64,000 nucleotides of DNA from a virus. Lineage: Duplodnaviria > Heunggongvirae > Uroviricota > Caudoviricetes. Within the stretch, counting starts at the first letter, position 1. The number at the start of each line of letters is the position of its first letter. Of this stretch, positions 14,340 through 35,449 are shown piece after piece. A program made the position numbers and the translations under genes. The notes beneath the pieces are model-generated. The model saw only the letters and a program-made list of their open reading frames with translations. It was not told where the DNA came from and did not search any database. Where the stretch lies: IMG/VR virus record IMGVR_UViG_3300037454_000478, positions 58,449-122,448 of that record; one strand, 5' to 3'.

Positions 14340-15200
14340 ATGAATGATCAATTACATATAGTTGCATTAAGTGATACCCATGGTAGGCTAAAGACCACAT
14401 ACATCCCCAAATGCGATGTTGTCACGATATCCGGCGACTTTTCTGCTTTAAGGAATGATCGTCAGGTGGCGTATAATGGACCATTATGCAACTGGATTGT
14501 CAACAAATTTATCCCATGGCTTGTGAGTTTGCCTTGTGAAAGGGTCATATTTATCCCGGGGAACCATGATTTTATCACGGAGCAAGGATGGTTTGAACAA
14601 TGGTTCAATGAGAAACTCAAGGCCTTGGATGAATACTACCTTGGCGCCGGTGAAGACAATAAGCCATCCAAAAAGATTGTGTATTTGTGTTACAATACCT
14701 ATGAATATAAAGGTTACACATTTTACGGATGCCCGGCGACAGATATGATGAGGTGGGCATGGCCTTCCAACAACGACTATACCAAATACAAAGCACCTTC
14801 GGGTACAGACATTATGTTAGTCCATCAGGCGCCGGATTGGATGGAATTAGGTACATCCCATTTCAATGACGGATATGCGGAGAATTTTGGCAGCAATTTA
14901 CTCCTCAATGCATTGGCTGATAACCCAAAGGATCTTCCAAAGTTGCTTCTTTGTGGTCACATTCATTCCGGCAACCACCTACCTATCATATACGATTTGA
15001 TGGATGAGGATGGGAAGAAGCACTCCTGCATGATGGCCAACGTATCGACCAAAAACGAAAGTTATGCGGAGTATTTCCATTGTAGAAATTTTGTATTGAT
15101 ACCGGTCGATGATCAAACCTATATTGAAACTTGGGTATCCCCAAGGGAAGGCCCGAGCGAAATTGAGGAATATAATCGCCGAGAACGTTTCATCCTCTAA
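14340..15200 (+). CDS. calcineurin-like metallophosphoesterase
   Basis: ALSDTHG, ISGD, IPGNHD and GHIH motifs. Confidence 0.7.
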   Translation: MNDQLHIVALSDTHGRLKTTYIPKCDVVTISGDFSALRNDRQVAYNGPLCNWIVNKFIPWLVSLPCERVIFIPGNHDFITEQGWFEQWFNEKLKALDEYYLGAGEDNKPSKKIVYLCYNTYEYKGYTFYGCPATDMMRWAWPSNNDYTKYKAPSGTDIMLVHQAPDWMELGTSHFNDGYAENFGSNLLLNALADNPKDLPKLLLCGHIHSGNHLPIIYDLMDEDGKKHSCMMANVSTKNESYAEYFHCRNFVLIPVDDQTYIETWVSPREGPSEIEEYNRRERFIL

Positions 15201-15250
15201 AAAATGATTGCAAATTACATATTTTATTAACAGAAATAAATTCAAACAGC

Positions 15251-15946
15251 ATGAATAGGACAATTGAAAACATTCAAAAGAACATGAAAACCGTTTTTGA
15301 AGGCTACGTTAATGGCCAAAAATTCACGAACCGTGAGTTAATGAACGCATATATCGGTAAGTGCATTTCCGAGGGTTTGCCTATCACCGATCTTTCGTAC
15401 TCAACAACCACCCAGTACAAGGAACCTGCCCCTGAAAACCGTCAATTCGACAACCGTCCCGGCCGTGACGCCATCCGTCAAGCCCAAAAGGAAATCAGTT
15501 GGGTCACCTACACCAACAACCTCAACCAGCGCGTTCCAAAACCATACGACAACGTCATTGGTTACGTGGTACCTTTCGTCCGTGAGGAAATCACCATCAA
15601 CGAGTCAAACGCCGAGTTTATCATCAACGACTTCAGGGCCCGCCTTAACGACCGCTTGGCATTCCTTGAGAATTATGTGTTCTCACAGATCCGTACATGG
15701 AAGTATGATGAGAATCAGGTCAACCAGTGGCTCGATCTCCTCACCAGTTCATTCCAACACAAGCTTGAGTGGGCCAACAACCGCGTCACCCTTATCGAGA
15801 ATTTCTTGAATGATGGTGATCCGTTCATCACTTCACATATCGATCAAACGGCACTTCGTGGTTTCCATGAGATCTACGCCGAAACCGCCGGATTCTGCAG
15901 TGCAGTCATTGACATCATTGCAGAACTCAAGTGCGACCTGCAGTAA
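15251..15946 (+). CDS. hypothetical protein (231 aa)
   Basis: ORF followed by a terminator. Confidence 0.6.
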   Translation: MNRTIENIQKNMKTVFEGYVNGQKFTNRELMNAYIGKCISEGLPITDLSYSTTTQYKEPAPENRQFDNRPGRDAIRQAQKEISWVTYTNNLNQRVPKPYDNVIGYVVPFVREEITINESNAEFIINDFRARLNDRLAFLENYVFSQIRTWKYDENQVNQWLDLLTSSFQHKLEWANNRVTLIENFLNDGDPFITSHIDQTALRGFHEIYAETAGFCSAVIDIIAELKCDLQ

Positions 15947-15965
15947 TCTCCGGGATATACGATCC

Positions 15966-15993
15966 GATACAAAACCCGCCGCGGCGGGTTTTT
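15966..15993 (+). terminator. rho-independent terminator
   Basis: AAACCCGCCG-CGGCGGGTTT stem followed by a T7 run. Confidence 0.75.
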
Positions 15994-16076
15994 TTATGCC
16001 TTTATGGTCTCAAAAATTACGACTACCAAGGAAAAAAACGTACAAAAAACCATATATTTATAAAAGTATTAAATGT

Positions 16077-17108
16077 ATGAAGCACGATAAGCAATGGAAT
16101 CCATCGGAGCATCATAACAAAGGATACGCTCCATATCAAAGGCATAAACTTAAAGCATCAAATTGGGTAACCCCGGAAGAAGCCGCAATGATTAGCAAAC
16201 GCTGCAATAAATGGCGTCATAATGGTATTTGGGGACGCGAGCCGGATTGGAATCTTGAAAGGAAACTCATAAATAAGTATGTTGATAAACCATACGATGT
16301 GTTTATCAAAGCATGGCATGAGAGAACCAAACAACTTCGCAAACAAGGTGTACTTTTGGAATTAAGATGTATCAAGCCAACATTGACGGATAGCCCCTCC
16401 ACTTGGGATGAATTTTATGTGGATACGGAAGGCATTATCCGTAAAAACGATAATTATAGATGGAGGTTCAATAGAAACAAAAAACCCATTAAAGTAGTAG
16501 AAAAAGAAGTGGTCAAATATCATCTTGACGATAAGATTTATAGTAAGAATTGGTGTACGCCAACGCCATTTCATATGATTCTTTCCATTTTGAGCCATTA
16601 TCTTTCCGTAACGGATTATAACGACATTCTTGATGGTGGTATCTCCAAGGAGAAATTCGACCGACTTGTTCAAAGTTCAATGCACAGCGGAATTAACTAT
16701 GCAATTGATAAGTTTGCCCGTAATCACAACAAGGAGTTAGGTAAAAACAACCCACGGTTTTACATGGGATCACCGGGATACTGTAGATACGATTGTTTTA
16801 ATGACTTATTTGTTGCGGATTATAGTGAATCCGTATATAGATACATATATCCGGGAACGCCGGAATATTCACAAATCGTTGCCGAGAGGAATGATGCTTC
16901 CAATAAAGCCCGCCGTGAATACAAAAAGCAAATGGATGATTACCGGGCTGGTCTTTTGCATAATATCGAGGCAAACCGTAAGGCCAAGGAGGATGAGATA
17001 AACCGCCAAAAAATCATCAAGCACGGCTTTGACGAAAACGAATCTTTCCGCGGGGAGGAATATCATGGCAAAAAACATAAAAGACGCAAGATGGCCATCG
17101 ATGCCTGA
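16077..17108 (+). CDS. hypothetical basic protein (343 aa)
   Basis: The ORF 15810.. is trimmed to the first ATG after the terminator. Confidence 0.55.
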   Translation: MKHDKQWNPSEHHNKGYAPYQRHKLKASNWVTPEEAAMISKRCNKWRHNGIWGREPDWNLERKLINKYVDKPYDVFIKAWHERTKQLRKQGVLLELRCIKPTLTDSPSTWDEFYVDTEGIIRKNDNYRWRFNRNKKPIKVVEKEVVKYHLDDKIYSKNWCTPTPFHMILSILSHYLSVTDYNDILDGGISKEKFDRLVQSSMHSGINYAIDKFARNHNKELGKNNPRFYMGSPGYCRYDCFNDLFVADYSESVYRYIYPGTPEYSQIVAERNDASNKARREYKKQMDDYRAGLLHNIEANRKAKEDEINRQKIIKHGFDENESFRGEEYHGKKHKRRKMAIDA

Positions 17109-17109
17109 T

Positions 17110-17359: not shown

Positions 17360-18613
17360 ATGAATAACGCAAATGAAATGATTTTTCCGGGAAACCTCAA
17401 GGTTTTCGCACAGACTGTCGAGCAGGAGGTATACGGCCAGCTATATCGTTTGTTGAGCTTGGATGCCTTCCGTGACGCAAAGATCCGTATCATGCCGGAT
17501 ACCCATGCCGGTATGGGTTGCGTGATTGGATTCACTGCCGCCTTGGGCGATAAGGTTGTCCCTAACCTCGTTGGGGTGGACATCGGATGCGGTATGTTCG
17601 TCCAAAACCTTGGACAAATAGACATTGATCTTCCGGCACTGGATAAATTTATCCGTGAGCATATTCCGTCCGGAAGCGGAGTCAATGAAATACAAGGAAC
17701 CCGCGTTGAATTTCCGGAGCTGAAAGATATGCGGATGTACAAGAGCCTCCGTAATATCGATCACTTACAGTCTTCGATTGGTTCCTTGGGTGGCGGAAAC
17801 CACTTCATTGAACTTGACCGCGACTCGAATGGTAACGTATACCTTGTTATCCATACGGGAAGCCGTAACCTTGGACAGCAGGTGTGTAAGCACTATCAAA
17901 AACTCGCTGTGGATCAATGCAATAAGCACTCTGCGGATATCAAGCGTGAGATCAATTCCGCCATCGAGCAGCTCAAGGCGGAAGGCCGTCAAAAGGAATC
18001 ATCGCGAGTTATCTCGGAAATCAAGGCAAAATACGGACGTATTGATAAGGTTCCGGCGGATTTGTGTTACCTTACCGGTGAACTCCGTGACGACTACCTC
18101 CACGATATGAAGATTTGTCAGGAGTTTGCCCGCCGTAACCGCGAGGAAATCGCCCACCGTATCTTCCGTCACATCAAATGGAGTGGCAAGTGGGGATTCC
18201 ACACCATCCACAATTACATCGATTTCACGGATAAGATCATCCGTAAGGGTGCTATCCGTTGTAATCAGGGTGAGATGGTCATTATCCCGTTGAATATGCG
18301 TGACGGATCGATCCTTGCCATTGGTAAAGGTAACGAGGATTGGAACTTTTCCGGCCCTCATGGCGCTGGTCGTTTGATGTCCCGTTCCGCTGCCAAGGAG
18401 TCAATCTCAATGAAAGACTTTAGGGCTTCGATGGAAGGTATCTACACCACATCGGTCAACAAAAACACCTTGGACGAATCCCCGATGGCATACAAAAACG
18501 CCAACGAAATCGTGGAGGCCATTCGAGATACTGTTGATGTAATTGAGGTGATCAAGCCCATTTACAACTTCAAGGCCAGTGAGACTGATGAGGATTATAA
18601 CCGCCAAAAATAA
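17360..18613 (+). CDS. rtcB: RtcB-family RNA ligase (joins 3'-phosphate to 5'-OH)
   Basis: MPDTHAGMGC, GGGNHFIEL and HNYI motifs, with RtcB-typical length. Confidence 0.85.
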   Translation: MNNANEMIFPGNLKVFAQTVEQEVYGQLYRLLSLDAFRDAKIRIMPDTHAGMGCVIGFTAALGDKVVPNLVGVDIGCGMFVQNLGQIDIDLPALDKFIREHIPSGSGVNEIQGTRVEFPELKDMRMYKSLRNIDHLQSSIGSLGGGNHFIELDRDSNGNVYLVIHTGSRNLGQQVCKHYQKLAVDQCNKHSADIKREINSAIEQLKAEGRQKESSRVISEIKAKYGRIDKVPADLCYLTGELRDDYLHDMKICQEFARRNREEIAHRIFRHIKWSGKWGFHTIHNYIDFTDKIIRKGAIRCNQGEMVIIPLNMRDGSILAIGKGNEDWNFSGPHGAGRLMSRSAAKESISMKDFRASMEGIYTTSVNKNTLDESPMAYKNANEIVEAIRDTVDVIEVIKPIYNFKASETDEDYNRQK

Positions 18614-18624
18614 CCAGCCATTGT

Positions 18625-18981
18625 ATGAAAACGTATCAACCTCACATACATGATTTTGGATACAAGTTGGGGGCTACCGATGAATTTCGGGAGGCCCTCA
18701 AGTCGTTAGGCTTCAAGTTCGTTGCTCCAACGGTAAACCGAGGATGTCACTGGGGTATGGTATACTTCTTCAATGAAGATCTTGAATTGGCTAAATCCTT
18801 GATAGACCCATCGGATAAACATTTCCGTATTGACACGGAAACCCGGTATTTCTATGTATCTCCGTACCGGGCGGATCCGGATTCTTCCCATTGGGGATTC
18901 TCGATCTCCTCAAATAAGCCACGGGTTTACAAATCCGTGACCCGGAAAAAACGAGGCCCATATCATAAAAAAGGTAAATAA
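18625..18981 (+). CDS. hypothetical protein (118 aa)
   Basis: ORF. Confidence 0.5.
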   Translation: MKTYQPHIHDFGYKLGATDEFREALKSLGFKFVAPTVNRGCHWGMVYFFNEDLELAKSLIDPSDKHFRIDTETRYFYVSPYRADPDSSHWGFSISSNKPRVYKSVTRKKRGPYHKKGK

Positions 18982-20358: not shown

Positions 20359-21056
20359 ATCCAAAACGTTTACTTAACTACGAGTTTCTCCGGGATAACA
20401 TAATGTGTATGGATGAACTCGATAAACAAACATCACAGATACTCAAGTCCATGCTGTTGCTTGCTTGCTACGACCTTTCATATATCAAGTTTGTTGACGC
20501 CCGTTTCTTTGTGGATACCATGGGTGGTGACAAGGTAACGATTATCCTTGGCCTAATAAGCAGAAAGCATTCAACACAAATACATTACGAGGTATCCGCG
20601 GATAGCCATTGCCACAACGCCAGCATCAAACGTAAGTTTGGTGTTTTCGAACTCAACAAAGATAATGGCACATGGAACCCGGTAGGAGCGTGTGAGTTGG
20701 GTGAGGATGCAGGTGAATTATTATCGTTGATAATCAAGAACGTACCGAGAGAGTTCATCATTGAAGAGGGGCCGGAAGATTTACCGGTTACCACGGATCC
20801 CATCCCCCCCGGCAAGTTACCAGTGATTCAACCGGATCAACTTCTTCAATTAAAGAAGGATATCGATGATTCCGTTGATGGTAAACTCGAACATGCAGCG
20901 GAAAGGATTCAGGCTTGGATCACTGATGAGTTCTGTCCGGTACTCCAGGAGTGGCTCGAAAAGGCTCTTGGCCGCAAATTGGATGTCAAAATAATGGACA
21001 AAACAAATGACGAGCACAAGGGGGATCCGGATAAAAACAAAAGCAACTTAATATAA
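20355..21056 (+). CDS. hypothetical protein (233 aa)
   Basis: ORF. Confidence 0.55.
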   Translation: MNPKRLLNYEFLRDNIMCMDELDKQTSQILKSMLLLACYDLSYIKFVDARFFVDTMGGDKVTIILGLISRKHSTQIHYEVSADSHCHNASIKRKFGVFELNKDNGTWNPVGACELGEDAGELLSLIIKNVPREFIIEEGPEDLPVTTDPIPPGKLPVIQPDQLLQLKKDIDDSVDGKLEHAAERIQAWITDEFCPVLQEWLEKALGRKLDVKIMDKTNDEHKGDPDKNKSNLI

Positions 21057-21574
21057 TGGAAGTCGGTGGCAATAACAAAACATACCCGGGGAGAAACCTA
21101 TCAAATTTCTTCCCACACCCCTTTATATTCCGCGGATTTGAGATTTCGTCCATGGAAGGTTTTCTGCAAGGATTGAAATTCAAATCGCCGGAAATGCAGG
21201 CAGAAGTATTCAAGTTGGTTGGTCTTGCTGCAAAGAAAAAAGGTGCCCCTAAAAATTGGCAACAAACCCAAACGTTATGGTTCCAGGGTAACCCAATACC
21301 TCGCAGATCCGAAACTTACCAATCCCTTCTTGACGAGGTATATGATGCCATGTACGAACAAAATGGTGCATTCCGTAAGGCATTGGCAGATGTTCCCGTA
21401 GACGCGGTGTTGACCCATTCCATCGGACGCACAAACGAATCGGAAACTGTGCTAACTATTCGGGAGTTTATCAGCCGGTTGAATAAATTACGCCGCGGAG
21501 AAAAGCTGTGCAAAAATCCGGTTATTTTTCCAAAACAGGAAGATATTGAAAATCAATTGTTTACACAAGGATAA
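21056..21574 (+). CDS. hypothetical protein (172 aa)
   Basis: ORF. Confidence 0.55.
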   Translation: MEVGGNNKTYPGRNLSNFFPHPFIFRGFEISSMEGFLQGLKFKSPEMQAEVFKLVGLAAKKKGAPKNWQQTQTLWFQGNPIPRRSETYQSLLDEVYDAMYEQNGAFRKALADVPVDAVLTHSIGRTNESETVLTIREFISRLNKLRRGEKLCKNPVIFPKQEDIENQLFTQG

Positions 21575-21733: not shown

Positions 21734-22075
21734 ATGGACAACGTGGCGAAAAAAATATGGAGCGTATCCGAGCTCGAAAATTTTGAGCGTACAATCCATA
21801 AAGTCCTTGAAGAGAATGACTGGCGGGATGGACATAAGTTCCATACACGTATAGATGCATATCTTAATAACATCGGCACACGGATTTTGACCAATGCTGT
21901 GGAACTCTCATATGACATCATATATTGCTTTGATAAGGAACGTACCGAAAAACACACTGAATGTTTTACCCCGGGTAACGTTATGTCAATTTACAATCAT
22001 ATTGATGATATTGAGATGTTGGTAAGACTCCACAGTCGTAGGTTAAATGCGATGGAACATTTTAATAGAAAATGA
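21734..22075 (+). CDS. hypothetical protein (113 aa)
   Basis: ATG after a promoter box. Confidence 0.5.
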   Translation: MDNVAKKIWSVSELENFERTIHKVLEENDWRDGHKFHTRIDAYLNNIGTRILTNAVELSYDIIYCFDKERTEKHTECFTPGNVMSIYNHIDDIEMLVRLHSRRLNAMEHFNRK

Positions 22076-22076
22076 T

Positions 22077-22409
22077 ATGGATAACCAATTAAACAACATC
22101 GACTCACAGGATATCGAACAATTCATTAGCAAATTTAGAACCCCCGAAACCATAAAGGTGTTCACGGAAGGTTGTTGCTACTGGTTTGCCCATATCCTTT
22201 ATACCCGGTTTTCAATGACCCATAAGGATCCTGAAATATGGTATAATATGGTGAGTGGACATTTTGCAACAAAGATAAACGGCAAAATATACGACATAAC
22301 CGGAGAAATAAAGGATCCGGATGATAAATGGATTAAATGGGATGAATATTTGACGATTGAACCTTCTTATTCGGTAGTCGTGATTAACGGATGTATCCTA
22401 AAAAATTAA
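22077..22409 (+). CDS. hypothetical protein (110 aa)
   Basis: ATG 2 nt after the previous stop. Confidence 0.5.
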   Translation: MDNQLNNIDSQDIEQFISKFRTPETIKVFTEGCCYWFAHILYTRFSMTHKDPEIWYNMVSGHFATKINGKIYDITGEIKDPDDKWIKWDEYLTIEPSYSVVVINGCILKN

Positions 22410-27034: not shown

Positions 27035-28249
27035 ATGACGAACAACCAACACATGCTTTTAATCACGGAACACCTTCATCCGGACATGGCAAAGAAGATC
27101 ATCAAGGATTTCAAGCTTCCGTTCAGTTATCTCAATCCATCCCATTTTGCTACTATGGTGGACAATATGGTGCAGGTGGCACCGGAGTTCAACGATGCAG
27201 TTGATATGATGGTAAACATTTGTGTCAACATCCATCGTGATGAACAACCGTTACTTTGTGGATATATCCGTGAAGTCACTGATCTTATGGTGGAACATAT
27301 CGTCCACAATACTGGTTACCAAATATTTAACCAACGGGATATCAATTCATTCTTCCCGGTGGAACAGCAAAACATCCCAACCGGCGACAACTACAATTAC
27401 GAAAGTGCCGGTAAGGATTTTATTTCCATCGACCTCAAAAACGCTGCATTCCAAGCAATGAAGGCATGGGATCGCCTTTATGGTGATGTTCATGGATATC
27501 TCATTGGTAATACCATCAATGATTACAAGGCATTTGTCGGAATTGTTGCCATCGATAGCGGATTTTGCAAGTCCCATAGCGAAAAGGTAAACAAGATCGT
27601 CATAGACTACATCAGCAAGTGCAAGTCCCTTCGTCAGGTCATCTTTGGTAAAACCAACCCCAAGCGCATCCAACATATCGAAAAGGCCATTATGCAGACA
27701 GTGGTGAAGTTAATTCACTCCGCACTTGATATCATGCCAGTTCGTTTCAATAACGATGAGGTAGTGTATGAATACAATGAGGAACTTGAAAGGTCTCTTT
27801 ATATCGAGGATACCTTGAAGTATTTGGAATACGTGATTACGGACATCGTGGGCAACGAATCTGTCCATATTCAAGTACCAATGGAGTTCCACAAGAACCT
27901 TTACTGCTTGGAGGAATATTCGCTCATTCAGCATGATGACTATATGCCGGTTGATCACAAGAAACCGATTAAGTTCTACGTTAAGAACAACGTAGCCATG
28001 CTTACCCGTACCAAACAGGCACCGGATTTCAAGAGCCTCCCGGCCCAGTTATACCTCATTGCCCGTGCACTTTTCTGTTCCCGTCCGGATTTGGCTCGTT
28101 TCTTTGAGACCCAGCCGGTTCTCGTGGATGGTGTGCTTCATTGGTTGGCTATCCCACACAGTACCTCCGGTGAGGAAATTGCTATCGAAACTACATGGGA
28201 ACTCTGTGGGAACATCCACAATAGCGAGTCCGGGGATATTGAAGAGTAA
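27035..28249 (+). CDS. hypothetical protein (404 aa)
   Basis: Long ORF. Confidence 0.6.
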   Translation: MTNNQHMLLITEHLHPDMAKKIIKDFKLPFSYLNPSHFATMVDNMVQVAPEFNDAVDMMVNICVNIHRDEQPLLCGYIREVTDLMVEHIVHNTGYQIFNQRDINSFFPVEQQNIPTGDNYNYESAGKDFISIDLKNAAFQAMKAWDRLYGDVHGYLIGNTINDYKAFVGIVAIDSGFCKSHSEKVNKIVIDYISKCKSLRQVIFGKTNPKRIQHIEKAIMQTVVKLIHSALDIMPVRFNNDEVVYEYNEELERSLYIEDTLKYLEYVITDIVGNESVHIQVPMEFHKNLYCLEEYSLIQHDDYMPVDHKKPIKFYVKNNVAMLTRTKQAPDFKSLPAQLYLIARALFCSRPDLARFFETQPVLVDGVLHWLAIPHSTSGEEIAIETTWELCGNIHNSESGDIEE

Positions 28250-28290
28250 CCTTTTTATTTCGTAAATCCTTTCCTTTTTGAAGCCCATTT

Positions 28291-28322
28291 GTTAAGTTAC
28301 AGATGGGTTTCTTTATATATAA
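28291..28322 (+). promoter_or_regulatory. conserved phage promoter
   Basis: gttaag at 28291-96 and tttatatata at 28313-22; ATG at 28340. Confidence 0.6.
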
Positions 28323-28339: not shown

Positions 28340-29869
28340 ATGAGAGCACAATTAGACAATCAATGCGTTTTGAGGATCCGCCGGGAAATCTTACAACCGG
28401 TTGCTGAATCTGAAGGTATTCAAGCTTGGATGGTTGGCGGATGTGTCCGCGACCTGATGCATCACGAAGGGATCAACGACATCGATGTGATATGCACCGA
28501 TGCCAGTAAATTCGTTAAAGCCCTGGATGAATACTTTACAGAGAATAATATTGGCCATTCGATTCACTCGATGGCAAATGGCCACGCCACGGTGATTTCC
28601 GTCAAAACCAAACCGATTTTTGGAGAATTTTTAATTCTTCCGTCTCAATTCGACATCGAAGTCTCCCAGCTCGATTACCTTGATAAACTTACGCCGGAGG
28701 AGGCCATCAAACAAGATGCAGGTTCACGTGATTTTATCTGTAACGCATGGTATATCAGCGTATCCGGCATTGACAAACCATTCACTCCGTTAACCAACGA
28801 GTCGATCGTTTACGATGCCGCCGGCAAGTATATCCATCCGTGCAATAAAAGCGCCACATTTTTTGATAGTCCCTTGCGCGTATTCCGTGCGATGGATCTC
28901 ATGTGCCGTGGATATAAGCCGACCATCGGCCTTGTCCGTGCACTGGATGATTATTTGCAAAACGGTATCAACAAAAAGGCTCACATTAATGCCTACTTAC
29001 AGGTAATCCACAAGATTTTCAGCCGGTTGGCGGATGGTGAGTACGATGTGAATAATGTGATCTATGCATTCAACTATTTTGCGGATCTTTGCGCATGGGG
29101 CAAGATGATCCACCCGGTATTCGAAGGTATGAAATATTGCATGCACAAAAATGATTACCACCATGATTCCGTGTGGCAACATACCATGAATGTGATATAT
29201 AATATGTCACGTTACCGCGTTCTTGACGAGCACGATTTCCCGATCAAGACAAATGCGTACGATTATTGGGCAGCTCTCCTTCATGACGCCGGTAAAACCA
29301 CCACGATTTCATATGATTTTGATGGTAATACCCATTTTTACGATCATCAATGTTCATCGGTGAATATCGCCAAGGAAATTTTGAAGGAAAGCCCCTTGAA
29401 CCGGGTGTGGTCGGAGTTTGTGCTCGAACTCATTGCCCATCACATGGATACCAAGGTTTTTGGTGACGAACCGATTAAGTACCACCAATACAAGCACATC
29501 CGTAAATTACAGTGGGAACTTGGTGCCATGGGTTTCCATCACTTCCTGATACTCAATCACGCCGATTGTGCTGCCAGTGAGCGTTCCGAGAACAAAAACA
29601 CCATCAATATAGTACGTGCCGTCAAGGATATGGCATATAACTGCGGTGAATCCGCGTGGGAATGCTACAAGATTCCGGTTAGCGGAAGTGACATCACGGA
29701 GGCATTTCCGGATGAACCCGGCATAAACATTGGCAAGTACATCAAACAACTTTATAAGGTCACATTCTCCCGGCCGGACGATTACAAGACCAAGGAGCAG
29801 TGCCTCCATTATGTCCGTACTCTTATAAAGACCGGATGGGCCAATAAAGCACGTAAGGAAACAAAATAA
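28340..29869 (+). CDS. tRNA nucleotidyltransferase (CCA-adding enzyme / poly(A) polymerase family) with HD domain
   Basis: WMVGGCVRDLMH...DIDV (Pol-beta nucleotidyltransferase GGxVRD motif). ALLHDAGK and HHMD (HD domain). The ATG after the promoter box is preferred over the TTG at 28289. Confidence 0.7.
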   Translation: MRAQLDNQCVLRIRREILQPVAESEGIQAWMVGGCVRDLMHHEGINDIDVICTDASKFVKALDEYFTENNIGHSIHSMANGHATVISVKTKPIFGEFLILPSQFDIEVSQLDYLDKLTPEEAIKQDAGSRDFICNAWYISVSGIDKPFTPLTNESIVYDAAGKYIHPCNKSATFFDSPLRVFRAMDLMCRGYKPTIGLVRALDDYLQNGINKKAHINAYLQVIHKIFSRLADGEYDVNNVIYAFNYFADLCAWGKMIHPVFEGMKYCMHKNDYHHDSVWQHTMNVIYNMSRYRVLDEHDFPIKTNAYDYWAALLHDAGKTTTISYDFDGNTHFYDHQCSSVNIAKEILKESPLNRVWSEFVLELIAHHMDTKVFGDEPIKYHQYKHIRKLQWELGAMGFHHFLILNHADCAASERSENKNTINIVRAVKDMAYNCGESAWECYKIPVSGSDITEAFPDEPGINIGKYIKQLYKVTFSRPDDYKTKEQCLHYVRTLIKTGWANKARKETK

Positions 29870-30180: not shown

Positions 30181-30474
30181 ATGAGACACACTTACGAAAT
30201 CTATCAGTTAAAGAGCTCCAACCCGAAGGCTTTCATGCCGCTTGACTTTGTGAACAACAGGCTCGGTGGAGTCAATTTTGAGGAATACAAGCACGTCTAT
30301 TCCAGTGAGATCGAAGGCGATGATACTATCACCATGTTGGAGACCCTGTTCGAGATCTTCAACTTGAGGCACCCGGAGGACTTTTTGGGACACAGCCTCT
30401 CCATGAGTGATATCGTGATCCTCGATGGCAAGAAGTACTACTGTGATTCGTTCGGCTGGAAGGCCATTGATTAA
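30181..30474 (+). CDS. hypothetical protein (97 aa)
   Basis: ATG after a conserved promoter. Confidence 0.5.
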   Translation: MRHTYEIYQLKSSNPKAFMPLDFVNNRLGGVNFEEYKHVYSSEIEGDDTITMLETLFEIFNLRHPEDFLGHSLSMSDIVILDGKKYYCDSFGWKAID

Positions 30475-31241: not shown

Positions 31242-32777
31242 ATGAGTACAACTCTGATTACAATTTTGGCAGTGGCAGTGTTTGTCATTGGATTCATCCT
31301 CGCATCGTACATCAAGGCACCTCCGTCCTACGCGTACATCGTTTCCGGTCTTAATCGCAAGCCGCGTACGTACATCGGTAAAGGTGGATTCCGCATCCCG
31401 GGTCTTGAACGACTCGACAAGGTGTTTCTCGGTCAGGTAACCGTGGACATCAAAACCAGTCGATCTGTTCCTACGAATGACTTTATCAACGTCAACGTGG
31501 ACGCGGTTGCAAAGATTCAGGTCATCAATGATACTGATGGTATCCGACTTGCCGCAAAGAACTTCTTGAACATGACCGGTGCGGAAATCTCCCGACAGGT
31601 TCAGGATTCGCTCGAAGGTAACATGCGTGAGGTGATCGGTGGTATCTCACTCCGTGACATCAACATCAACCGTGATGCATTCTCGGATGCCATTATGGAA
31701 AAGGCCCAAAAGGATATGAATGCCCTCGGCCTCAACATTATTTCGTGCAACATCCAAAACGTGACGGACGACAAGAACCTCATCGAGGACTTGGGTGCCG
31801 ATAACACGTGGACGATCAAGAAACAGGCCAAGATTAACAAGGCCAACGCCGAACGTGATATTGCCAAGGCTGAAGCTGCCGCAAATCAGGAAGCCAACGA
31901 TGCTCGTGTGAAGTCCGAAACCGCCATCGCCGAGCGTAACAACGAACTCGCCGTCAAGAAATCCGAACTTAACATTGTGGAGGAAACCAAGAAGGCTGAC
32001 GCGGACGCCGCTTATGAGATCCAAAAGCAAGTCCAGCAAAAGCGTATCAACGTGGAAACCGTTGAGGCTGAATCCGCCAAGGAAATCCTCCGTCAGGAAC
32101 GTCAAAAGGAGATCAACACCAAGACTGTTGATGCTGAAACCGAGAAGGCACGCCGTCAACAGGAACTCACCGCCGAGCAGGTGAAGATCCAACAGAACCG
32201 ACTCGAGGCTGAAATCGCCAAGAAGGCTGAAGCCGACAAGTTCCAAACAGAAACCAATGCTGCCGCTGAACTCGAACAGCGCAAGCGTAAGGCTGAAGCT
32301 GAAGCATACGAGGCCGAGCAAAAGGCACGCGCCCAAATCGCCCTTGCTGAAGCCAAGAAAAAGCAGATGGTTCTTGAAGCCGAAGGTGTGAAGGCCCAAG
32401 GTGAGGCTGAAGCCTACAAGATCCAATGCGAAGGTGAAGCCCGCGCTGTGGCCATCGAGAAACAAGGTCTTGCTGAAGCCGAGGCCATGAACAAGAAGGC
32501 CGAAGCATACGAGAAGTACGGTCAGGCAGCTATCCTCGACATGATGGTCAAGATCGTTCCGGAAGTTTCGAAGAATGTCGCCGAACCTATCGGAAACATC
32601 GACAACCTCAACATCTACGGCTCATCCGGTCAGGACGCCACTGGTGTATCGGGCATGGTTCCTACGGTCGTCAAACAGTCCTTCGATGTCATCAAGAGTG
32701 CCACCGGAGTCGACATGGGACAACTCGTTCAGGAAAAGACCAAGATCGTTGGCGCTGGAGTGGACATCAACCAGTAA
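31242..32777 (+). CDS. flotillin / SPFH (band-7) domain protein with a long Ala/Glu/Lys-rich coiled coil
   Basis: N-terminal TM, then an SPFH-like region (YIVSGLNRKPRTYIGKGGFRIPGLERL...VDIKT...NVNVDAVAKIQV), then ~250 aa of AEAEA/KKAEA heptads. Confidence 0.7.
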   Translation: MSTTLITILAVAVFVIGFILASYIKAPPSYAYIVSGLNRKPRTYIGKGGFRIPGLERLDKVFLGQVTVDIKTSRSVPTNDFINVNVDAVAKIQVINDTDGIRLAAKNFLNMTGAEISRQVQDSLEGNMREVIGGISLRDININRDAFSDAIMEKAQKDMNALGLNIISCNIQNVTDDKNLIEDLGADNTWTIKKQAKINKANAERDIAKAEAAANQEANDARVKSETAIAERNNELAVKKSELNIVEETKKADADAAYEIQKQVQQKRINVETVEAESAKEILRQERQKEINTKTVDAETEKARRQQELTAEQVKIQQNRLEAEIAKKAEADKFQTETNAAAELEQRKRKAEAEAYEAEQKARAQIALAEAKKKQMVLEAEGVKAQGEAEAYKIQCEGEARAVAIEKQGLAEAEAMNKKAEAYEKYGQAAILDMMVKIVPEVSKNVAEPIGNIDNLNIYGSSGQDATGVSGMVPTVVKQSFDVIKSATGVDMGQLVQEKTKIVGAGVDINQ

Positions 32778-32799
32778 CCGCACAATCGATCGATTTTTG

Positions 32800-32836: not shown

Positions 32837-32862
32837 TATTATTACAAACCCAAGCGAACGAA

Positions 32863-33252
32863 ATGTTACAAAATTATTATATGAAAAGTATATCAGACCA
32901 TATGACGTGTGAAGAGGACATTTTGGAGCATCTTACCGTGAGTGACGGTAGGCCCATGTACATTGAAACAAATAAATCCAAATCCCAACGTTCGGGTAAA
33001 TCCAAATCAAAACAGAGGAGCTACGCCCCGAATGAAGGTGGTAATGAGGAACACCAAAGAAAACCGGCGGAGGTGCATTATGAGGAACACTATGAGACCC
33101 ATGAGGAATACTGCATCCATCAAAAAAATAATGTCAACCAAGGTATCACAATGTGTGACATTGATCAGGATATAACCATGTGCGCCTCGTGTCCGTACAG
33201 AAAATCCCGCGTTGTGAAATGCAAGGTTTCCTCCGCATCGGCTAAAGTATAA
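32863..33252 (+). CDS. hypothetical His/Glu-rich protein (129 aa)
   Basis: The ORF 32575.. overlaps the previous gene, so I start it at the first ATG after the terminator. Confidence 0.45.
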   Translation: MLQNYYMKSISDHMTCEEDILEHLTVSDGRPMYIETNKSKSQRSGKSKSKQRSYAPNEGGNEEHQRKPAEVHYEEHYETHEEYCIHQKNNVNQGITMCDIDQDITMCASCPYRKSRVVKCKVSSASAKV

Positions 33253-33258
33253 TAAGTT

Positions 33259-33519
33259 ATGAAAATACCCGTATTCATCCAAAAGATTTACAACCGGATA
33301 ACCAGGGCCAAGTTCTTCTATGTAACTTTGGACGTATGTCCGGATTTTGCGACCGGTCAAGGTGAGATGTGTTCATACACCATCCGATCGAAAGATAAAG
33401 ACAAGGCAGAATCCATTGCGGTATCAAAAGCTATGGTCGATTGGGGAGTAGCAAATGATGCCATCTTCGTGGTAGAAGTCGTGGAAACCCAGTCACCGGA
33501 ACTCATTTACGACAAATAA
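33259..33519 (+). CDS. hypothetical protein (86 aa)
   Basis: ORF. Confidence 0.45.
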   Translation: MKIPVFIQKIYNRITRAKFFYVTLDVCPDFATGQGEMCSYTIRSKDKDKAESIAVSKAMVDWGVANDAIFVVEVVETQSPELIYDK

Positions 33520-33540
33520 TTATAAACCTTCCACATACAT

Positions 33541-34218
33541 TTGAATATGAACGATACAAGTAAACTTTCGGCAAAACTTCAAATCCTTGATACAGAATTT
33601 CAAAAACGGGATTCATCGTATTGCACCAACCTCACAACATTGATTGATAGAGGGTGCTCCATCACGGACAATTCCAACCTCCTCGATTGCATTATCACCC
33701 GCAAGGATAAGAACGGTGATATGAAGCATATACCTGCCCATTTTGTGGCAAAACGTATGGTTAGGGACTTCAATCCCGGGTACAAAACCGTTTTGGTGAC
33801 CGCAAAGTTTTTGGACGATATGTTCAAATTCTATATGGAGCATTTTTGCAAATCCACACTTGACCTGTCAAAGAACGAAACCATGTATTTTGTTATGATG
33901 TATGGCGACAGGTTCTTCATGTTTAACATCGGGGATATGATATTCCGCCATGGTATGAATGCCGAACAAGGACGCCGTAAATACATAAAGACCATCAAGG
34001 TCAAAAATCCGGCAACCGGTGGTTGGGATAAGGAAAATCTCTACAATATACCCATCAATTGGGCGGAAGAGTATATGTATGTCGGAACATCAAAGGATGA
34101 CCGCGAAACGATCTACGACAAATGCAAAAAAATCACAAGTGATGCCATAACGGATTCCATCCTTGGCTCACAGGTTATCACGAAGGTCTCCCAACCCGAT
34201 ATATCTCCGTTTATTTGA
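33541..34218 (+). CDS. hypothetical protein (225 aa)
   Basis: ORF. Confidence 0.55.
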   Translation: MNMNDTSKLSAKLQILDTEFQKRDSSYCTNLTTLIDRGCSITDNSNLLDCIITRKDKNGDMKHIPAHFVAKRMVRDFNPGYKTVLVTAKFLDDMFKFYMEHFCKSTLDLSKNETMYFVMMYGDRFFMFNIGDMIFRHGMNAEQGRRKYIKTIKVKNPATGGWDKENLYNIPINWAEEYMYVGTSKDDRETIYDKCKKITSDAITDSILGSQVITKVSQPDISPFI

Positions 34219-34219
34219 T

Positions 34220-34300
34220 GGTTTATTTGCGCTATAATCGCATTTCTCAATTACCCAATATAGTTATGAGGGGGAAACATAAAAACGCGTTAAATCAAAG
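34220..34300. repeat. structured intergenic element, copy D (degenerate)
   Basis: TTTATTTGCGCTATAATCGCA...CCCAATATAGTTATGAGGGGG...AAAAACGCGTTAAATC. Confidence 0.45.
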
Positions 34301-34312
34301 TTATTTGCTGTT

Positions 34313-34591
34313 ATGAGTACATATGCATCAATTGCAATAATGGTTGGAATCGTTCTACTTTTCGCCATCGGCATTCCGCTCGCATACAGATCGGAGAAAA
34401 AAGCGTTCAATAATGGAAAGTGTCCGCATTGTGGTAGTGACCTTAAATGGGAGGATTCCGATTCACAAGGTGGACGTCTTTGGATGTGCCCTGGCCATTA
34501 TACAATAAAGGATAAATATGGGAAACCTTTATGCCCCGGGTATTCGTGTTGGATATCGTACGGCCGGGTAGATAAAAAATTTAGAAAATGA
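34313..34591 (+). CDS. membrane-anchored zinc-ribbon protein (92 aa)
   Basis: N-terminal TM plus CPHCGS...CPGHY. Confidence 0.5.
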   Translation: MSTYASIAIMVGIVLLFAIGIPLAYRSEKKAFNNGKCPHCGSDLKWEDSDSQGGRLWMCPGHYTIKDKYGKPLCPGYSCWISYGRVDKKFRK

Positions 34592-34788
34592 AAATTGTTG
34601 GAATAATCGGTATAATCCTGATAGCGATTGCTGTAATATTTGTTTTTGCATACATATCCACAAAGATGTATGAAAAATTTTGGAATGGAGGATATTGTCC
34701 GGATTGTGGTGAAAAATGGGATGCCATAACATCAAACGGACATGTATATGTGTCCTGCCCAAAATGTGGTAGAACGGCATGCTATTAA
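34588..34788 (+). CDS. membrane-anchored zinc-ribbon protein, paralog of the previous gene (66 aa)
   Basis: N-terminal TM plus CPDCGE...CPKCG; ATGA overlap with the upstream gene. Confidence 0.5.
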   Translation: MKIVGIIGIILIAIAVIFVFAYISTKMYEKFWNGGYCPDCGEKWDAITSNGHVYVSCPKCGRTACY

Positions 34789-34804
34789 CCATTATTATTT
34801 AATC

Positions 34805-35449
34805 ATGAAAACATTACATGAATATATATTGATGGAATCTCCCAAACGGCTTCGTGGAAGTGAAACCGGTTTGATTGTGTTTGATATTGATGATACCCTC
34901 CTCAAGGTGAATGCAGATGACTTCTTTATTTACAAAAACGTAAACGGAAAGGAAATAGCTCTCACCACGGACGAATTTGCCAAGGATCCGGATGCATCCA
35001 ACCCGGATAATATTCACAGCGGTATGTTTGATTATCGTGATTTTGGCAATCCGGAGAAGGTATACATGTCAATCATTACCGGTACCCCACTGTTAAGGAA
35101 TCTCCGTATTTTGGATGATTATGTCGAAGCCGGTTATGAATTTTGTTTCCTCACTGCCCGTCAATGTGAGGATGTTATCAAGAAGGCCATCGATAGTTTC
35201 CTACAGGTACGCCGTAACGGAGTGCTCGAGCCGATTGGGGATGCATTCAATAAGACCCTTTCCCATGCCGTCAATGATAAACTCAAGAATTATCCGGGTA
35301 GGACGGATGCGGAGAAGAAGGCAAACATCCTCATTAAACTCTGTCAAATCTATGACAAGGTGGTATTTGTGGATGATGACCATAAAAATGTCAATGCCGC
35401 CATCAATTTGAATATACCGAACCTAAAGGTGATCAAGGCGTGGGATTAA
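34805..35449 (+). CDS. HAD-superfamily phosphatase
   Basis: IVFDIDDTLL (DxDxT motif I) and VVFVDDDHKNV (motif IV). Confidence 0.6.
   Translation: MKTLHEYILMESPKRLRGSETGLIVFDIDDTLLKVNADDFFIYKNVNGKEIALTTDEFAKDPDASNPDNIHSGMFDYRDFGNPEKVYMSIITGTPLLRNLRILDDYVEAGYEFCFLTARQCEDVIKKAIDSFLQVRRNGVLEPIGDAFNKTLSHAVNDKLKNYPGRTDAEKKANILIKLCQIYDKVVFVDDDHKNVNAAINLNIPNLKVIKAWD

What the first reader, a model, noticed from the sequence alone, without database searches (positions are those of the whole stretch)
14340..35449. Dispersed tRNA-repair toolkit: RtcB ligase, CCA-adding enzyme with HD domain, metallophosphoesterase, HAD phosphatase
RtcB (17360..18613) joins 2',3'-cyclic-phosphate or 3'-phosphate ends to 5'-OH ends. 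These are the products of anticodon nucleases such as PrrC and RloC, of colicin-type tRNases, and of other tRNA-targeting defence nucleases. The 510-aa GGxVRD nucleotidyltransferase with HD domain (28340..29869) could rebuild damaged 3' CCA ends. Two phosphoesterases, a calcineurin-like protein at 14340..15200 and a DxDxT HAD protein at 34805..35449, could heal ends. Together they resemble the T4 Pnkp/Rnl tRNA-repair counter-defence, but built from different enzymes. This suggests the host population carries tRNA-cleaving defence systems.
Basis: partly seen in the sequence, partly recalled or inferred. Interest (0 to 1): 0.65.

Follow-up and report, generated by a model that had tools for sequence, protein, structure and literature searches.

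The report
Phage RNA-repair genes, plus unknown polymerase
A large gut phage carries a known kind of RNA-repair kit, an RtcB ligase and a CCA-type enzyme for tRNA 3' ends; the CCA-type enzyme is always paired with an uncharacterised small polymerase-like protein that also sits inside RNA-repair operons of many other phages.

Summary
All four genes exist at the stated coordinates and belong to the stated superfamilies. RtcB is unambiguous, with every catalytic residue conserved. The nucleotidyltransferase-HD protein is a very divergent class II CCA-type enzyme. It has an intact HD site, but its nucleotide-templating motif is D[S/N]PLR, not EDxxR.

The "toolkit" reading is only partly right. RtcB seals 3'-P or 2',3'>P ends to 5'-OH ends directly, so it needs no healing phosphatases. 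The 64-kb window has no ATP-dependent RNA ligase or polynucleotide kinase. Nothing specific ties the HAD protein to RNA repair. Phage RtcB (692 GenBank phage records) and jumbo-phage CCA enzymes are already described.

This pairing holds across the lineage, down to 29% identity. Its model (pLDDT 91.5) is a right-hand polymerase palm-fingers core. The family has at least 1,725 clusters at 50% identity and no Pfam model. In 44 of 58 IMG/VR loci it lies next to CCA-type enzymes, RlaP, RNA ligases, Fmt, or the window's own metallophosphoesterase subfamily. None of 80 control loci shows this.

The finding as flagged is ordinary. The polymerase-like partner is the interesting lead.

The parts
17360..18613 (+). 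RtcB RNA ligase (417 aa), which joins 3'-P or 2',3'>P ends to 5'-OH ends
   Evidence: PF01139 3.9e-60 and phrog_1075 3.7e-130. All metal-ligand residues and the His334 nucleophile motif are invariant in 82 phage homologues. It is 73-83% identical in lineage relatives L087, L094 and L100.
18625..18981 (+). Small ORF (118 aa) that follows RtcB across the lineage; function unknown
   Evidence: Homologues lie just downstream of RtcB in L087 (48%), L094 (48%) and L100 (61%). No Pfam hit.
27035..28249 (+). Uncharacterised polymerase-like protein (404 aa, right-hand palm plus fingers core); conserved upstream partner of the NTase-HD gene
28280..28321 (+). 13-bp hairpin followed by a TTATATATA motif, between the polymerase-like gene and the NTase-HD gene (a terminator plus promoter-like cassette)
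   Evidence: Scan hit. The hairpin is kept with compensatory changes in L081 and L084. The motif occurs 14 times in the window against 1.5 expected.
28340..29869 (+). Divergent class II (CCA-type) nucleotidyltransferase with an HD phosphohydrolase domain (509 aa)
   Evidence: PolyA_pol 4e-9 and HD 9e-7. Full-length alignment to the Aquifex CC-adding enzyme. The nearest cellular relatives are Bacteroidales CCA enzymes at about 22% identity. Motifs A and B, the Arg of motif D and the HD residues are invariant; motif D reads D[S/N]PLR.
14340..15200 (+). MPPED2-like calcineurin-type metallophosphoesterase (286 aa); candidate accessory end-processing enzyme
   Evidence: PF00149 1.6e-9, MPPED2 7e-9, PDC-S10 1e-28. 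The same subfamily lies directly downstream of the polymerase-like gene in L095, L126, L128, L131, L139 and L143, next to LigA or near RNA ligases. It is kept upstream of RtcB in L100.
31242..32777 (+). SPFH/Band-7 flotillin-like protein (511 aa), co-conserved downstream of the NTase-HD gene; membership uncertain
   Evidence: Band_7 4e-22 plus Flot. It is 68-90% identical in L081, L084 and L087 and is also present in L105. There is no association outside the lineage. The link to RNA repair rests only on my recollection of Burroughs & Aravind 2016.
34805..35449 (+). Stand-alone HAD (DxDxT) phosphatase (214 aa); a role in RNA repair is not supported
   Evidence: Motifs are invariant. phrog_415 'polynucleotide kinase' 2e-7. 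The Foldseek top hit is T4 Pnkp, but at E 6e-3 and TM 0.39, equal to the XMP phosphatase. No PDB sequence hit. It is present in L081, L087, L105 and a 474-kb megaphage contig, and absent near the NTase in L084 and L094.

Best explanation
The window comes from a T4-like jumbo phage lineage. Relatives lie on contigs of about 200-245 kb, and the host is probably Bacteroidota.

Its accessory region encodes an RNA (most likely tRNA) repair set with two separate arms.

Arm 1 is RtcB. It directly reseals breaks that have 2',3'-cyclic-phosphate or 3'-phosphate and 5'-OH ends, the products of metal-independent anticodon nucleases. It needs no prior end healing.

Arm 2 is a conserved gene pair: a minimal palm-fingers polymerase-like protein and a CCA-type nucleotidyltransferase with an active-looking HD phosphohydrolase domain. 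I infer that this pair restores damaged RNA 3' ends in three steps. The HD domain clears a 2',3'-cyclic or 3'-phosphate. The polymerase-like protein refills missing nucleotides. The NTase adds terminal nucleotides, whose specificity may be altered because the templating Asp is replaced.

The MPPED2-like metallophosphoesterase is a probable accessory of arm 2. The HAD phosphatase is not demonstrably part of either arm.

Shown here: family membership, conserved catalytic residues, synteny and gene-neighbourhood associations. Inferred: the substrates (tRNA), the order of reactions and the counter-defence purpose.
For: - RtcB is intact.
- The NTase-HD aligns over its full length with a solved CC-adding enzyme and keeps the catalytic DxD, RD, template Arg and all HD residues.
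- The polymerase-like gene and the NTase-HD gene are adjacent in six lineage members at 29-70% identity. In L094 the two genes overlap.
- RtcB lies within 10 kb of the pair in the window, L087 and L094.
- Of 58 IMG/VR loci holding a polymerase-like homologue (27 clusters at 60% identity), 29 have a CCA-type NTase, 10 RlaP, 7 an RNA ligase, 6 Fmt and 9 a metallophosphoesterase within 10 kb. In all, 44 of 58 loci have at least one, against 0 of 80 control phage loci.
- L152 reads RlaP, polymerase-like gene, CCA NTase, three further ORFs, PF09414 RNA ligase, then an AAA_33 kinase. L144 reads RlaP, polymerase-like gene, CCA-HD. L128 reads polymerase-like gene, metallophosphoesterase, LigA.
- Five of 8 GTDB loci repeat these patterns.
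- The published framework for jumbo-phage RNA repair lists RtcB, CCA-adding enzymes, and HAD, calcineurin-like and HD phosphatases (PMC7824862).
Against: - No biochemical data exist.
- RtcB, the NTase pair, the metallophosphoesterase and the HAD gene are 3-16 kb apart, separated by unrelated genes such as NrdD, a gp30.3 homologue and a Tad3-like gene. They are not one operon.
- RtcB is never within 10 kb of the polymerase-like gene in the 58 IMG/VR loci, including L105 of the window's own lineage.
- The NTase misses NCBIfam CCA cut-offs by a wide margin (51.5 against 438.8 bits). It lacks a detectable RNA-binding neck domain and the templating Asp.
- Relatives carry a weak precomputed Pfam 'Gad2' hit.
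- The polymerase-like gene also sits next to the DNA ligase LigA in two loci, so DNA substrates are possible.
- The control set (RtcB-anchored loci from mostly smaller phages) is not a matched control.
- No tRNA-like RNA or tRNA gene is nearby.
Confidence: 0.55

Rival explanations
1. Housekeeping for the phage's own translation apparatus. The CCA-type enzyme matures phage-encoded tRNAs that lack an encoded CCA. RtcB processes or splices phage RNAs. Neither acts as counter-defence.
For: Jumbo phages often carry many tRNAs together with CCA-adding enzymes (PMC7824862). The window covers only 64 kb of a genome of roughly 200-245 kb. The polymerase-like gene repeatedly neighbours Fmt, a tRNA-acting housekeeping enzyme.
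Against: No tRNA gene was found in the window or in 11 related loci. Relatives of the gene pair sit with RlaP, RNA ligase and kinase genes, which are repair components rather than maturation components. The HD domain is conserved.
Confidence: 0.15
2. The four genes are functionally unrelated accessory or anti-defence genes. The NTase-HD is a Gad2-like anti-Gabija enzyme or another signalling NTase. The metallophosphoesterase is a cyclic-nucleotide phosphodiesterase that degrades immune second messengers. The HAD protein is a nucleotide-pool phosphatase. Only RtcB repairs RNA.
For: - Relatives of the NTase-HD carry a weak precomputed Pfam PF26128 'Gad2' hit, and Gad2 is a predicted NTase.
- The best solved relative of the metallophosphoesterase is MPPED2, a class III cyclic-nucleotide phosphodiesterase relative by my recollection, and it matches the PADLOC candidate defence family PDC-S10.
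- The region holds a Tad3-like gene. Relatives hold Tad8, NAD-salvage genes and MazG.
- HAD fold hits include nucleotide phosphatases.
- Many nucleotide-metabolism genes lie nearby.
Against: tBLASTn found no SPbeta-group Bacillus phage (the group that carries Gad2) for the NTase-HD. The NTase aligns over its full length with tRNA nucleotidyltransferases, including the body and HD regions. The partner family's neighbourhoods are dominated by RNA-repair genes, and the metallophosphoesterase subfamily is part of them.
Confidence: 0.15
3. The polymerase-like protein, the metallophosphoesterase and the HD domain form a DNA-end processing and repair module (gap filling, 3'-end cleaning, ligation by host or phage DNA ligase). 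The CCA-type NTase acts as a terminal transferase on DNA or on primers.
For: In L095 and L128 the polymerase-like gene lies within two genes of the NAD-dependent DNA ligase LigA. A metallophosphoesterase follows it directly in both, and an HD/ExoX-like protein follows in L095. The best structural matches are DNA polymerases. Giant-virus structural relatives include a fusion to a DEDDy exonuclease.
Against: LigA is seen in only 2 of 58 loci, against 29 with CCA-type NTases, 10 with RlaP, 7 with RNA ligases and 6 with Fmt. The phage has its own full-length family B replicase at 52665-55625. Other giant-virus relatives are annotated 'R3H domain protein', and R3H is a single-stranded nucleic-acid-binding domain by my recollection.
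Confidence: 0.1

Closest known systems
Phage and bacterial RtcB RNA ligases (E. coli RtcB type; phrog_1075)
   Same: Pfam and PHROG membership, length of about 410 aa, and all metal ligands and the guanylyl-His motif conserved. Homologues occur in 692 GenBank phage records, mostly annotated tRNA-splicing ligase.
   Different: At most 53% identical to any GenBank phage RtcB and 66% to any IMG/VR one. No RtcA, RtcR, archease, RlaP or PrfH partner lies nearby. It is followed instead by a lineage-specific 118-aa ORF.
Class II tRNA nucleotidyltransferases with an HD domain (Bacteroidales CCA enzymes; Aquifex aeolicus CC-adding enzyme, PDB 3wfo-3wfs)
   Same: Head domain with GGxVRD and DxD, the RD of motif B, the Arg of motif D, a complete HD motif set, and co-linear alignment over about 465 residues.
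   Different: About 22% identity. The templating Asp of EDxxR is replaced by Ser or Asn in the whole phage clade. No PolyA_pol_RNAbd neck domain is detected. It falls far below the NCBIfam CCA cut-offs. It is always preceded by the polymerase-like gene.
Jumbo-phage RNA-repair systems as catalogued by Iyer et al. 2021 (PMC7824862) and Burroughs & Aravind 2016
   Same: The same parts list: an RtcB or ATP-grasp ligase, CCA-adding or RlaP NTases, and HAD, calcineurin-like or HD phosphoesterases.
   Different: The genes here are dispersed rather than operonic. RtcB occurs without a kinase or an ATP-grasp ligase. A palm-fold polymerase-like component is not mentioned in the RNA-repair section of that review.
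T4 Pnkp plus Rnl1 heal-and-seal pathway against PrrC
   Same: The presumed purpose (reversing tRNA cleavage). The HAD protein shares the DxDxT fold with the Pnkp phosphatase domain, and T4 Pnkp is the weak top Foldseek hit.
   Different: No polynucleotide kinase and no ATP-dependent RNA ligase in the window. RtcB chemistry bypasses healing. The HAD protein is stand-alone and has no sequence-level match to Pnkp.
Right-hand (palm) nucleic-acid polymerases, families A and B
   Different: Only 310-400 aa, with no exonuclease and no recognisable thumb annotation. No significant sequence similarity to any solved polymerase or to the phage's own PolB. No Pfam, PHROG, NCBIfam or PADLOC model matches.

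Membership tests
RtcB (PF01139) | Profile match above the curated threshold | tested here: met
   204.7 bits against a 27-bit cut-off; phrog_1075 436 bits.
RtcB (PF01139) | Metal-binding Asp/Cys/His residues and the His nucleophile in the HGAGR motif | tested here: met
   D74, C77, N147, H148, H165, H284, H334 and R338 are present and invariant in 82 sequences. The motifs align with the T. thermophilus RtcB structure 2epg. The mapping to named catalytic residues is from my knowledge of P. horikoshii and E. coli RtcB.
RtcB (PF01139) | GTP- and Mn-dependent ligation of 3'-P or 2',3'>P ends to 5'-OH ends | not testable with these tools
   Needs an enzyme assay.
Class II CCA-adding enzyme | Head-domain motif A (GGxVRD ... 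DxD) and motif B (RD) | tested here: met
   G33, G34, R37, D38, D47, D49, R130 and D131 are invariant across the phage clade and cellular CCA enzymes.
Class II CCA-adding enzyme | Motif D amino-acid template EDxxR | tested here: not met
   The window has DSPLR and the clade consensus is DNPLR; the Arg is kept and the templating Asp is replaced. In E. coli PAP the Arg dominates specificity, and CCA enzymes have a backup mechanism (PMC2532741), so activity is not excluded.
Class II CCA-adding enzyme | RNA-binding neck domain (PF12627) and curated equivalog score | tested here: not met
   PF12627 is absent from the whole phage clade but present in cellular relatives. TIGR02692 scores 51.5 bits against a 438.8-bit cut-off.
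Class II CCA-adding enzyme | HD phosphohydrolase motif set in the body domain (bacterial HD-containing subtype) | tested here: met
   H281, H315, D316, K319, H336, H368 and D409 are invariant; PF01966 9e-7.
T4 Pnkp-type polynucleotide 3'-phosphatase (HAD) | DxDxT acyl-phosphatase motifs | tested here: met
   D27, D29, T31, T117, K171/K172 and D190-D192 are invariant.
T4 Pnkp-type polynucleotide 3'-phosphatase (HAD) | Specific similarity to the Pnkp phosphatase domain, and a fused or adjacent 5'-kinase | tested here: inconclusive
   phrog_415 2e-7. T4 Pnkp 2ia5 is the Foldseek top hit, but at E 6e-3 and TM 0.39, tied with the XMP phosphatase. Neither the single sequence nor the profile hits any PDB sequence. 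No kinase is fused or adjacent.
Calcineurin-like metallophosphoesterase acting in RNA end healing (CthPnkp type) | Binuclear metal motifs DxH / GD / GNH(D/E) / H / GHxH | tested here: met
   The motifs are readable in the translation; PF00149 38.9 bits against a 21.5-bit cut-off.
Calcineurin-like metallophosphoesterase acting in RNA end healing (CthPnkp type) | Linkage to a ligase, kinase or NTase of an RNA-repair system | tested here: inconclusive
   In the window it lies 2.2 kb upstream of RtcB with two unrelated ORFs between. Its subfamily directly follows the polymerase-like gene, next to LigA or near RNA ligases, in six other loci. The closest solved relative is MPPED2, not a polynucleotide phosphatase.
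Heal-and-seal pathway (T4 Pnkp/Rnl1 type) | ATP-dependent RNA ligase plus polynucleotide 5'-kinase | tested here: not met
   The Pfam scans of the window's larger ORFs gave no RNA_ligase or PNK hit. The AAA_28 protein at 2234-2812 is thymidylate-kinase-like. tBLASTn with Rnl and PNK queries found nothing in the window. The rest of the genome was not seen.
Gad2 (anti-Gabija NTase, PF26128) | Profile match to Gad2 or similarity to SPbeta-group Gad2 | tested here: inconclusive
   Only a weak precomputed hit on relatives. There was no hit in my Pfam copy even at E up to 10. tBLASTn found no SPbeta-group Bacillus phage.
Right-hand palm polymerases (for ORF 27035-28249) | Palm fold with conserved carboxylates at the end of strand 1 and in the strand 2-3 hairpin | tested here: met
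Right-hand palm polymerases (for ORF 27035-28249) | Nucleotidyl-transfer activity and substrate type | not testable with these tools
   Needs biochemistry.

The most novel reading that the evidence does not exclude
ORF 27035-28249 represents a large, unnamed family of minimal Pol I-like palm polymerases: at least 1,725 clusters at 50% identity, found in phages, MAG contigs and, by fold, giant viruses. In this reading the family is dedicated to RNA repair. Working with CCA-type or RlaP nucleotidyltransferases, and often with Fmt, it rebuilds nucleotides lost from tRNA acceptor ends. For example, it could fill in the 3' strand of the acceptor stem using the 5' strand as template before CCA is added. 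That would be a new enzymatic step in phage counter-defence against tRNA-targeting immunity.
Probability: 0.3. Interest if true: 0.8.

Novelty: new variant of a known kind. Interest (0 to 1): 0.5.

Why it matters
The flagged finding is a further example of something already catalogued: large phages carry RtcB and CCA-type enzymes, presumably to undo tRNA damage inflicted by host immunity.

The added value is the conserved, uncharacterised polymerase-like partner. If it really is an RNA-repair polymerase, it adds a template-capable polymerase to a pathway so far thought to use only ligases, end-modifying enzymes and template-independent nucleotidyltransferases.

It would also give a function to a protein family of more than a thousand clusters that has no Pfam model. 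It points to a class of host nucleases that remove more than the CCA end, and that idea can be tested. Finally, the altered D[S/N]PLR template in the NTase predicts an unusual nucleotide specificity that is simple to assay.

Tried and rejected
- Megablast of the 21-kb region against GenBank phages found nothing.
- A single-sequence scan of IMG/VR for the NTase-HD found no relatives.
- A search for an archease, RtcA, kinase or second ligase among the small ORFs between the four genes gave no relevant Pfam hit.
- A search for a tRNA, a tRNA-like RNA or a Y-RNA near the SPFH gene found nothing: ARAGORN 0 genes, Rfam gathering threshold 0 hits, and only chance-level hits at the E-value threshold. 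Relatives have no conserved large intergenic region there.
- I tested whether RtcB's neighbourhood is conserved across phages. Only RtcB itself is shared with 80 IMG/VR loci.
- I tested whether the polymerase-like protein is a duplicate of the phage's own PolB. hhalign probability was 0.4%.
- Sequence and profile searches of the PDB with the HAD protein gave no hits.
- The AAA_28 proteins in the window and next to the NTase in L081 were considered as polynucleotide kinases. They match thymidylate-kinase PHROGs instead.
- The afdb50 fold library was unavailable.
- The Burroughs & Aravind 2016 paper is not held. Its SPFH/Band-7 statement is cited from memory only.
- The annotated context of the homologue in Salicola phage SCTP-2 is all 'hypothetical protein'.

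Full report
**Setting**

- The window is phage DNA. Nearly all genes are on the + strand up to about 45 kb.
- It has a tail-fibre gene, a family B DNA polymerase of the T4 gp43 type, NrdD, a T4 gp30.3 homologue, QueC and a Tad3-like gene.
- The polymerase's best GenBank matches are T4-like phages of Flavobacterium and Tenacibaculum.
- Relatives lie on metagenomic contigs of 196-245 kb. One relative carries a Por_Secre_tail (T9SS) domain gene. The nearest cellular relatives of the nucleotidyltransferase are Bacteroidales enzymes.
- I therefore read this as a jumbo, distantly T4-like phage of gut Bacteroidota.
- No GenBank phage is similar at the DNA level.

**Observation check**

- **RtcB (17360-18613)** is unambiguous.
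  - PF01139 scores 3.9e-60 and phrog_1075 scores 3.7e-130.
  - The motifs MPDTH, VDIGCG, GGGNHF, IHTGSR, HNY and PHGAGR are all present.
  - Their key residues are invariant in 82 aligned phage RtcBs.
- **The 509-aa protein at 28340-29869** has a PolyA_pol head and an HD domain.
  - It aligns co-linearly over about 465 residues with the Aquifex aeolicus CC-adding enzyme.
  - The longer TTG-initiated ORF from 28289 is unlikely. That stretch holds a conserved hairpin and a promoter-like motif.
- **The protein at 14340-15200** is a calcineurin-like metallophosphoesterase with all metal motifs.
  - Its best solved relative is MPPED2.
  - Its strongest profile match is the PADLOC candidate family PDC-S10.
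- **The protein at 34805-35449** has invariant DxDxT, T, K and DDD motifs and a HAD-fold model.
  - Its Pfam matches are marginal.

**What is already known**

- RtcB homologues occur in 692 GenBank phage records, mostly annotated as tRNA-splicing ligase.
- The jumbo-phage review PMC7824862 lists RtcB, Rnl1/2, polynucleotide kinases, HAD, calcineurin-like and HD phosphatases, RlaP, CCA-adding enzymes and Thg1 as RNA-repair components that counter tRNA-cleaving immunity.
- The same review states that kinases and phosphatases accompany the ATP-grasp ligases, because those ligases need 5'-P and 3'-OH ends.

- By established enzymology, RtcB joins 3'-P or 2',3'>P ends to 5'-OH ends directly. A 3'-phosphatase is not needed and would remove its substrate.
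- The window has no ATP-dependent RNA ligase, RlaP or polynucleotide kinase. The only P-loop kinase-like protein matches thymidylate-kinase PHROGs.
- The four genes are separated by unrelated genes.
- Outside the lineage, RtcB's neighbourhood is not conserved. Of all window proteins, only RtcB matches 80 IMG/VR RtcB loci within 10 kb on either side.
- The HAD protein is highly conserved: 65-85% identical in relatives, including a 474-kb megaphage contig.
  - It has uninformative neighbours there.
  - It is absent near the NTase in L084 and L094.
  - Its similarity to T4 Pnkp is not discriminating. The Foldseek hit has E 6e-3 and TM 0.39, tied with a nucleotide phosphatase. There is no sequence-level hit.

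**The nucleotidyltransferase-HD in detail**

- Its clade comprises about 16 clusters on large phage contigs. The next relatives are 480-aa Bacteroidales CCA enzymes at about 22% identity.
- In a joint alignment, these are invariant: the catalytic GGxVRD and DxD, the RD of motif B, two Arg residues of motif D, and the complete HD set (H281, H315, D316, K319, H336, H368, D409).
- The canonical EDxxR amino-acid template reads DSPLR here and DNPLR in most of the clade. The Asp that pairs with the incoming base is replaced.
- PMC2532741 reports that the Arg dominates specificity in E. coli poly(A) polymerase, and that CCA enzymes have a backup mechanism. Activity is therefore plausible, but the specificity may differ.
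- The PolyA_pol_RNAbd neck domain is not detected in the clade. NCBIfam CCA equivalog thresholds are missed by far.
- Some relatives carry a weak precomputed 'Gad2' Pfam hit. Gad2 is a predicted NTase that blocks Gabija.
- I found no BLAST-level similarity to any SPbeta-group Bacillus phage, and no hit in my Pfam copy.
- I therefore call it a CCA-type class II nucleotidyltransferase with an HD phosphohydrolase. I do not call it a proven CCA-adding enzyme.

**The missed component**

In every lineage member examined, the gene directly upstream of the NTase-HD is a homologue of ORF 27035-28249.

| Locus | Identity to ORF 27035-28249 |
|---|---|
| L081 | 70% |
| L084 | 47% |
| L087 | 29% |
| L094 | 31% |
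| L105 | 31% |

- In L094 the two genes overlap by 8 nt.
- The protein has no Pfam, PHROG, NCBIfam or PADLOC match.
- With a 47-sequence alignment, AlphaFold2 gives pLDDT 91.5.
- The invariant residues fit a polymerase active site.
  - D133 ends a beta-strand.
  - K197, R200, Q201, G205, N208 and R211 lie in a helical segment.
  - D241 and E242 sit in a beta-hairpin.
  - This matches the geometry described in PMC7824862.
- The motifs DLKxAAFQ, RQVIFGK and NNDE resemble Pol I motifs A, B and C. The only sequence hit in the PDB, not significant, is to motif C of Aquifex Pol I.
- It is not a copy of the phage's own PolB.
- BFVD contains structural relatives in giant viruses (Tupanvirus, Klosneuvirus and others). 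Some are annotated 'R3H domain protein', and one is fused to a DEDDy exonuclease.
- A profile search of 1.84 billion representative proteins finds 1,725 clusters at E <= 1e-3 and 1,377 at E <= 1e-10.
- GenBank phages hold only three homologues. One record annotates it as hypothetical; the other two records have no annotation.

**Neighbourhoods of the polymerase-like family**

A profile-guided scan of IMG/VR gave 58 loci in 27 clusters at 60% identity. A tBLASTn panel counted hits within 10 kb on either side.

| Neighbour within 10 kb | 58 polymerase-like loci | 80 RtcB-anchored control loci |
|---|---|---|
| CCA-type NTase | 29 (11 clusters), usually the very next gene | 0 |
| RlaP | 10 | 0 |
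| RNA ligase | 7 | 0 |
| Met-tRNA formyltransferase-like (Fmt) | 6 | 0 |
| Metallophosphoesterase | 9 | 0 |
| LigA | 2 | 0 |
| At least one of the above | 44 (21 of 27 clusters) | 0 |

This control is imperfect, because it comes from different and mostly smaller phages.

Gene orders checked with ORF calls and Pfam:

- L152: RlaP, polymerase-like gene, CCA NTase (PolyA_pol 1.4e-38), a 377-aa ORF, two small ORFs, PF09414 RNA ligase, then an AAA_33 kinase.
- L144: RlaP, polymerase-like gene, CCA-HD NTase.
- L106: polymerase-like gene, CCA NTase.
- L148: polymerase-like gene, RlaP.
- L128: polymerase-like gene, metallophosphoesterase, LigA.

Other collections agree.

- ENA and Logan contexts show an RNA ligase (L092), LigA plus metallophosphoesterase plus an HD protein (L095), and RlaP plus Fmt (L098). 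L096 is uninformative.
- GTDB contigs show the same in 5 of 8 loci.

The metallophosphoesterases directly downstream of the polymerase-like gene in L095, L126, L128, L131, L139 and L143 belong to the window's own subfamily (E 1e-12 to 1e-19). This is the only evidence that ties the window's metallophosphoesterase to this system.

RtcB is never within 10 kb of the polymerase-like gene in the 58 IMG/VR loci, which include L105 of the window's own lineage. It is within that range in the window, L087 and L094.

**Synthesis**

- The best-supported reading is an RNA-repair set with two arms: RtcB for direct sealing, and a 3'-end restoration module made of the polymerase-like protein and the CCA-type NTase-HD.
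- The metallophosphoesterase is a likely accessory. The HAD protein is unassigned.
- The tRNA substrate is inferred from three things: the CCA-type family, the recurrent Fmt neighbour, and the RlaP/Rnl/kinase operons.
- The counter-defence purpose is inferred from the literature. Neither inference is shown here.
- The SPFH/flotillin gene (31242-32777) is co-conserved in the lineage. From memory, Burroughs & Aravind 2016 proposed SPFH modules as RNA-repair scaffolds. I found no association outside the lineage and no nearby structured RNA, so I list it only as uncertain.

**Rivals**

- Maturation of the phage's own tRNAs. No tRNA genes were seen, but most of the genome is outside the window.
- Unrelated anti-defence or nucleotide-metabolism roles: the weak Gad2 hit, MPPED2/PDC-S10 similarity, and the surrounding Tad3-like and nucleotide-metabolism genes.
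- DNA-end repair, suggested by the LigA contexts.

**Verdict**

- The finding as written is an ordinary new instance of a known phage strategy. It has one mechanistic error (healing enzymes for RtcB) and one unsupported member (the HAD protein).
- The conserved polymerase-like partner of the CCA-type enzyme is an uncharacterised, widespread family with a consistent RNA-repair gene context. That is what makes the locus worth follow-up.

Noticed in passing
window 5138-9826: A complete diversity-generating retroelement. The tail-fibre gene (5138-7633) carries a variable repeat at 7447-7630. The template repeat is at 8419-8602 (88% identical, with 21 of 22 mismatches at template adenines). The reverse transcriptase is at 8639-9826. 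No match to the tail-fibre, RT or adjacent ORFs appears in the related contig L100, where their flanking genes lie close together.
   Followed up: yes
window 36302-37645; L087, L094: A Tad3-like (Thoeris inhibitor) protein, Pfam 1.6e-16, is conserved across the lineage. Relatives carry Tad8, NAPRTase plus isochorismatase, and MazG in the same accessory region, which suggests an anti-defence gene cluster.
   Followed up: partly
window 12855, 17132, 23137, 26582, 28313, 30147, 35505, 38321, 57068 and others: The motif TTATATATA occurs 14 times against 1.5 expected. Most copies are on the + strand, and several lie 10-40 nt upstream of start codons; it is probably a phage promoter element. The copy before the NTase-HD gene follows a hairpin that covaries in L081 and L084.
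   Followed up: partly
window 2234-5014: A thymidylate-kinase-like P-loop protein, a truncated SAM-synthetase-like protein (phrog_1569) and QueC lie together. This hints at 7-deazaguanine or another DNA or nucleotide modification pathway.
   Followed up: no
window 18625-18981: A 118-aa ORF with no family match follows RtcB in every lineage member where RtcB is visible (L087, L094, L100). It may be an RtcB partner.
   Followed up: partly
L081 2385-7049 against window 24213-26525: The NrdD of relative L081 is 1,554 aa and contains two inteins, one apparently with a LAGLIDADG endonuclease domain (faint hit). The window's NrdD (770 aa) has none. Two RtcB homologues in GenBank phages also match in two pieces, which suggests insertions (H6 and H15).
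   Followed up: no
L095 8947-9678: The metallophosphoesterase next to the polymerase-like gene in this contig is split by an in-frame stop into ORFs of 170 and 70 aa. This could be a pseudogene, recoding or an assembly error.
   Followed up: no
window 21056-21574, 22047-22409, 30181-30474: A T4 gp30.3 homologue (4e-49), a YunG-like protein and a YodL-like protein lie among the accessory genes. Their functions are unknown.
   Followed up: no
L101 (474-kb contig), 8001-8645: The HAD protein is 67% identical to a gene on a 474-kb contig dense with small unannotated ORFs, probably a megaphage. This implies strong conservation or exchange among large gut phages.
   Followed up: partly
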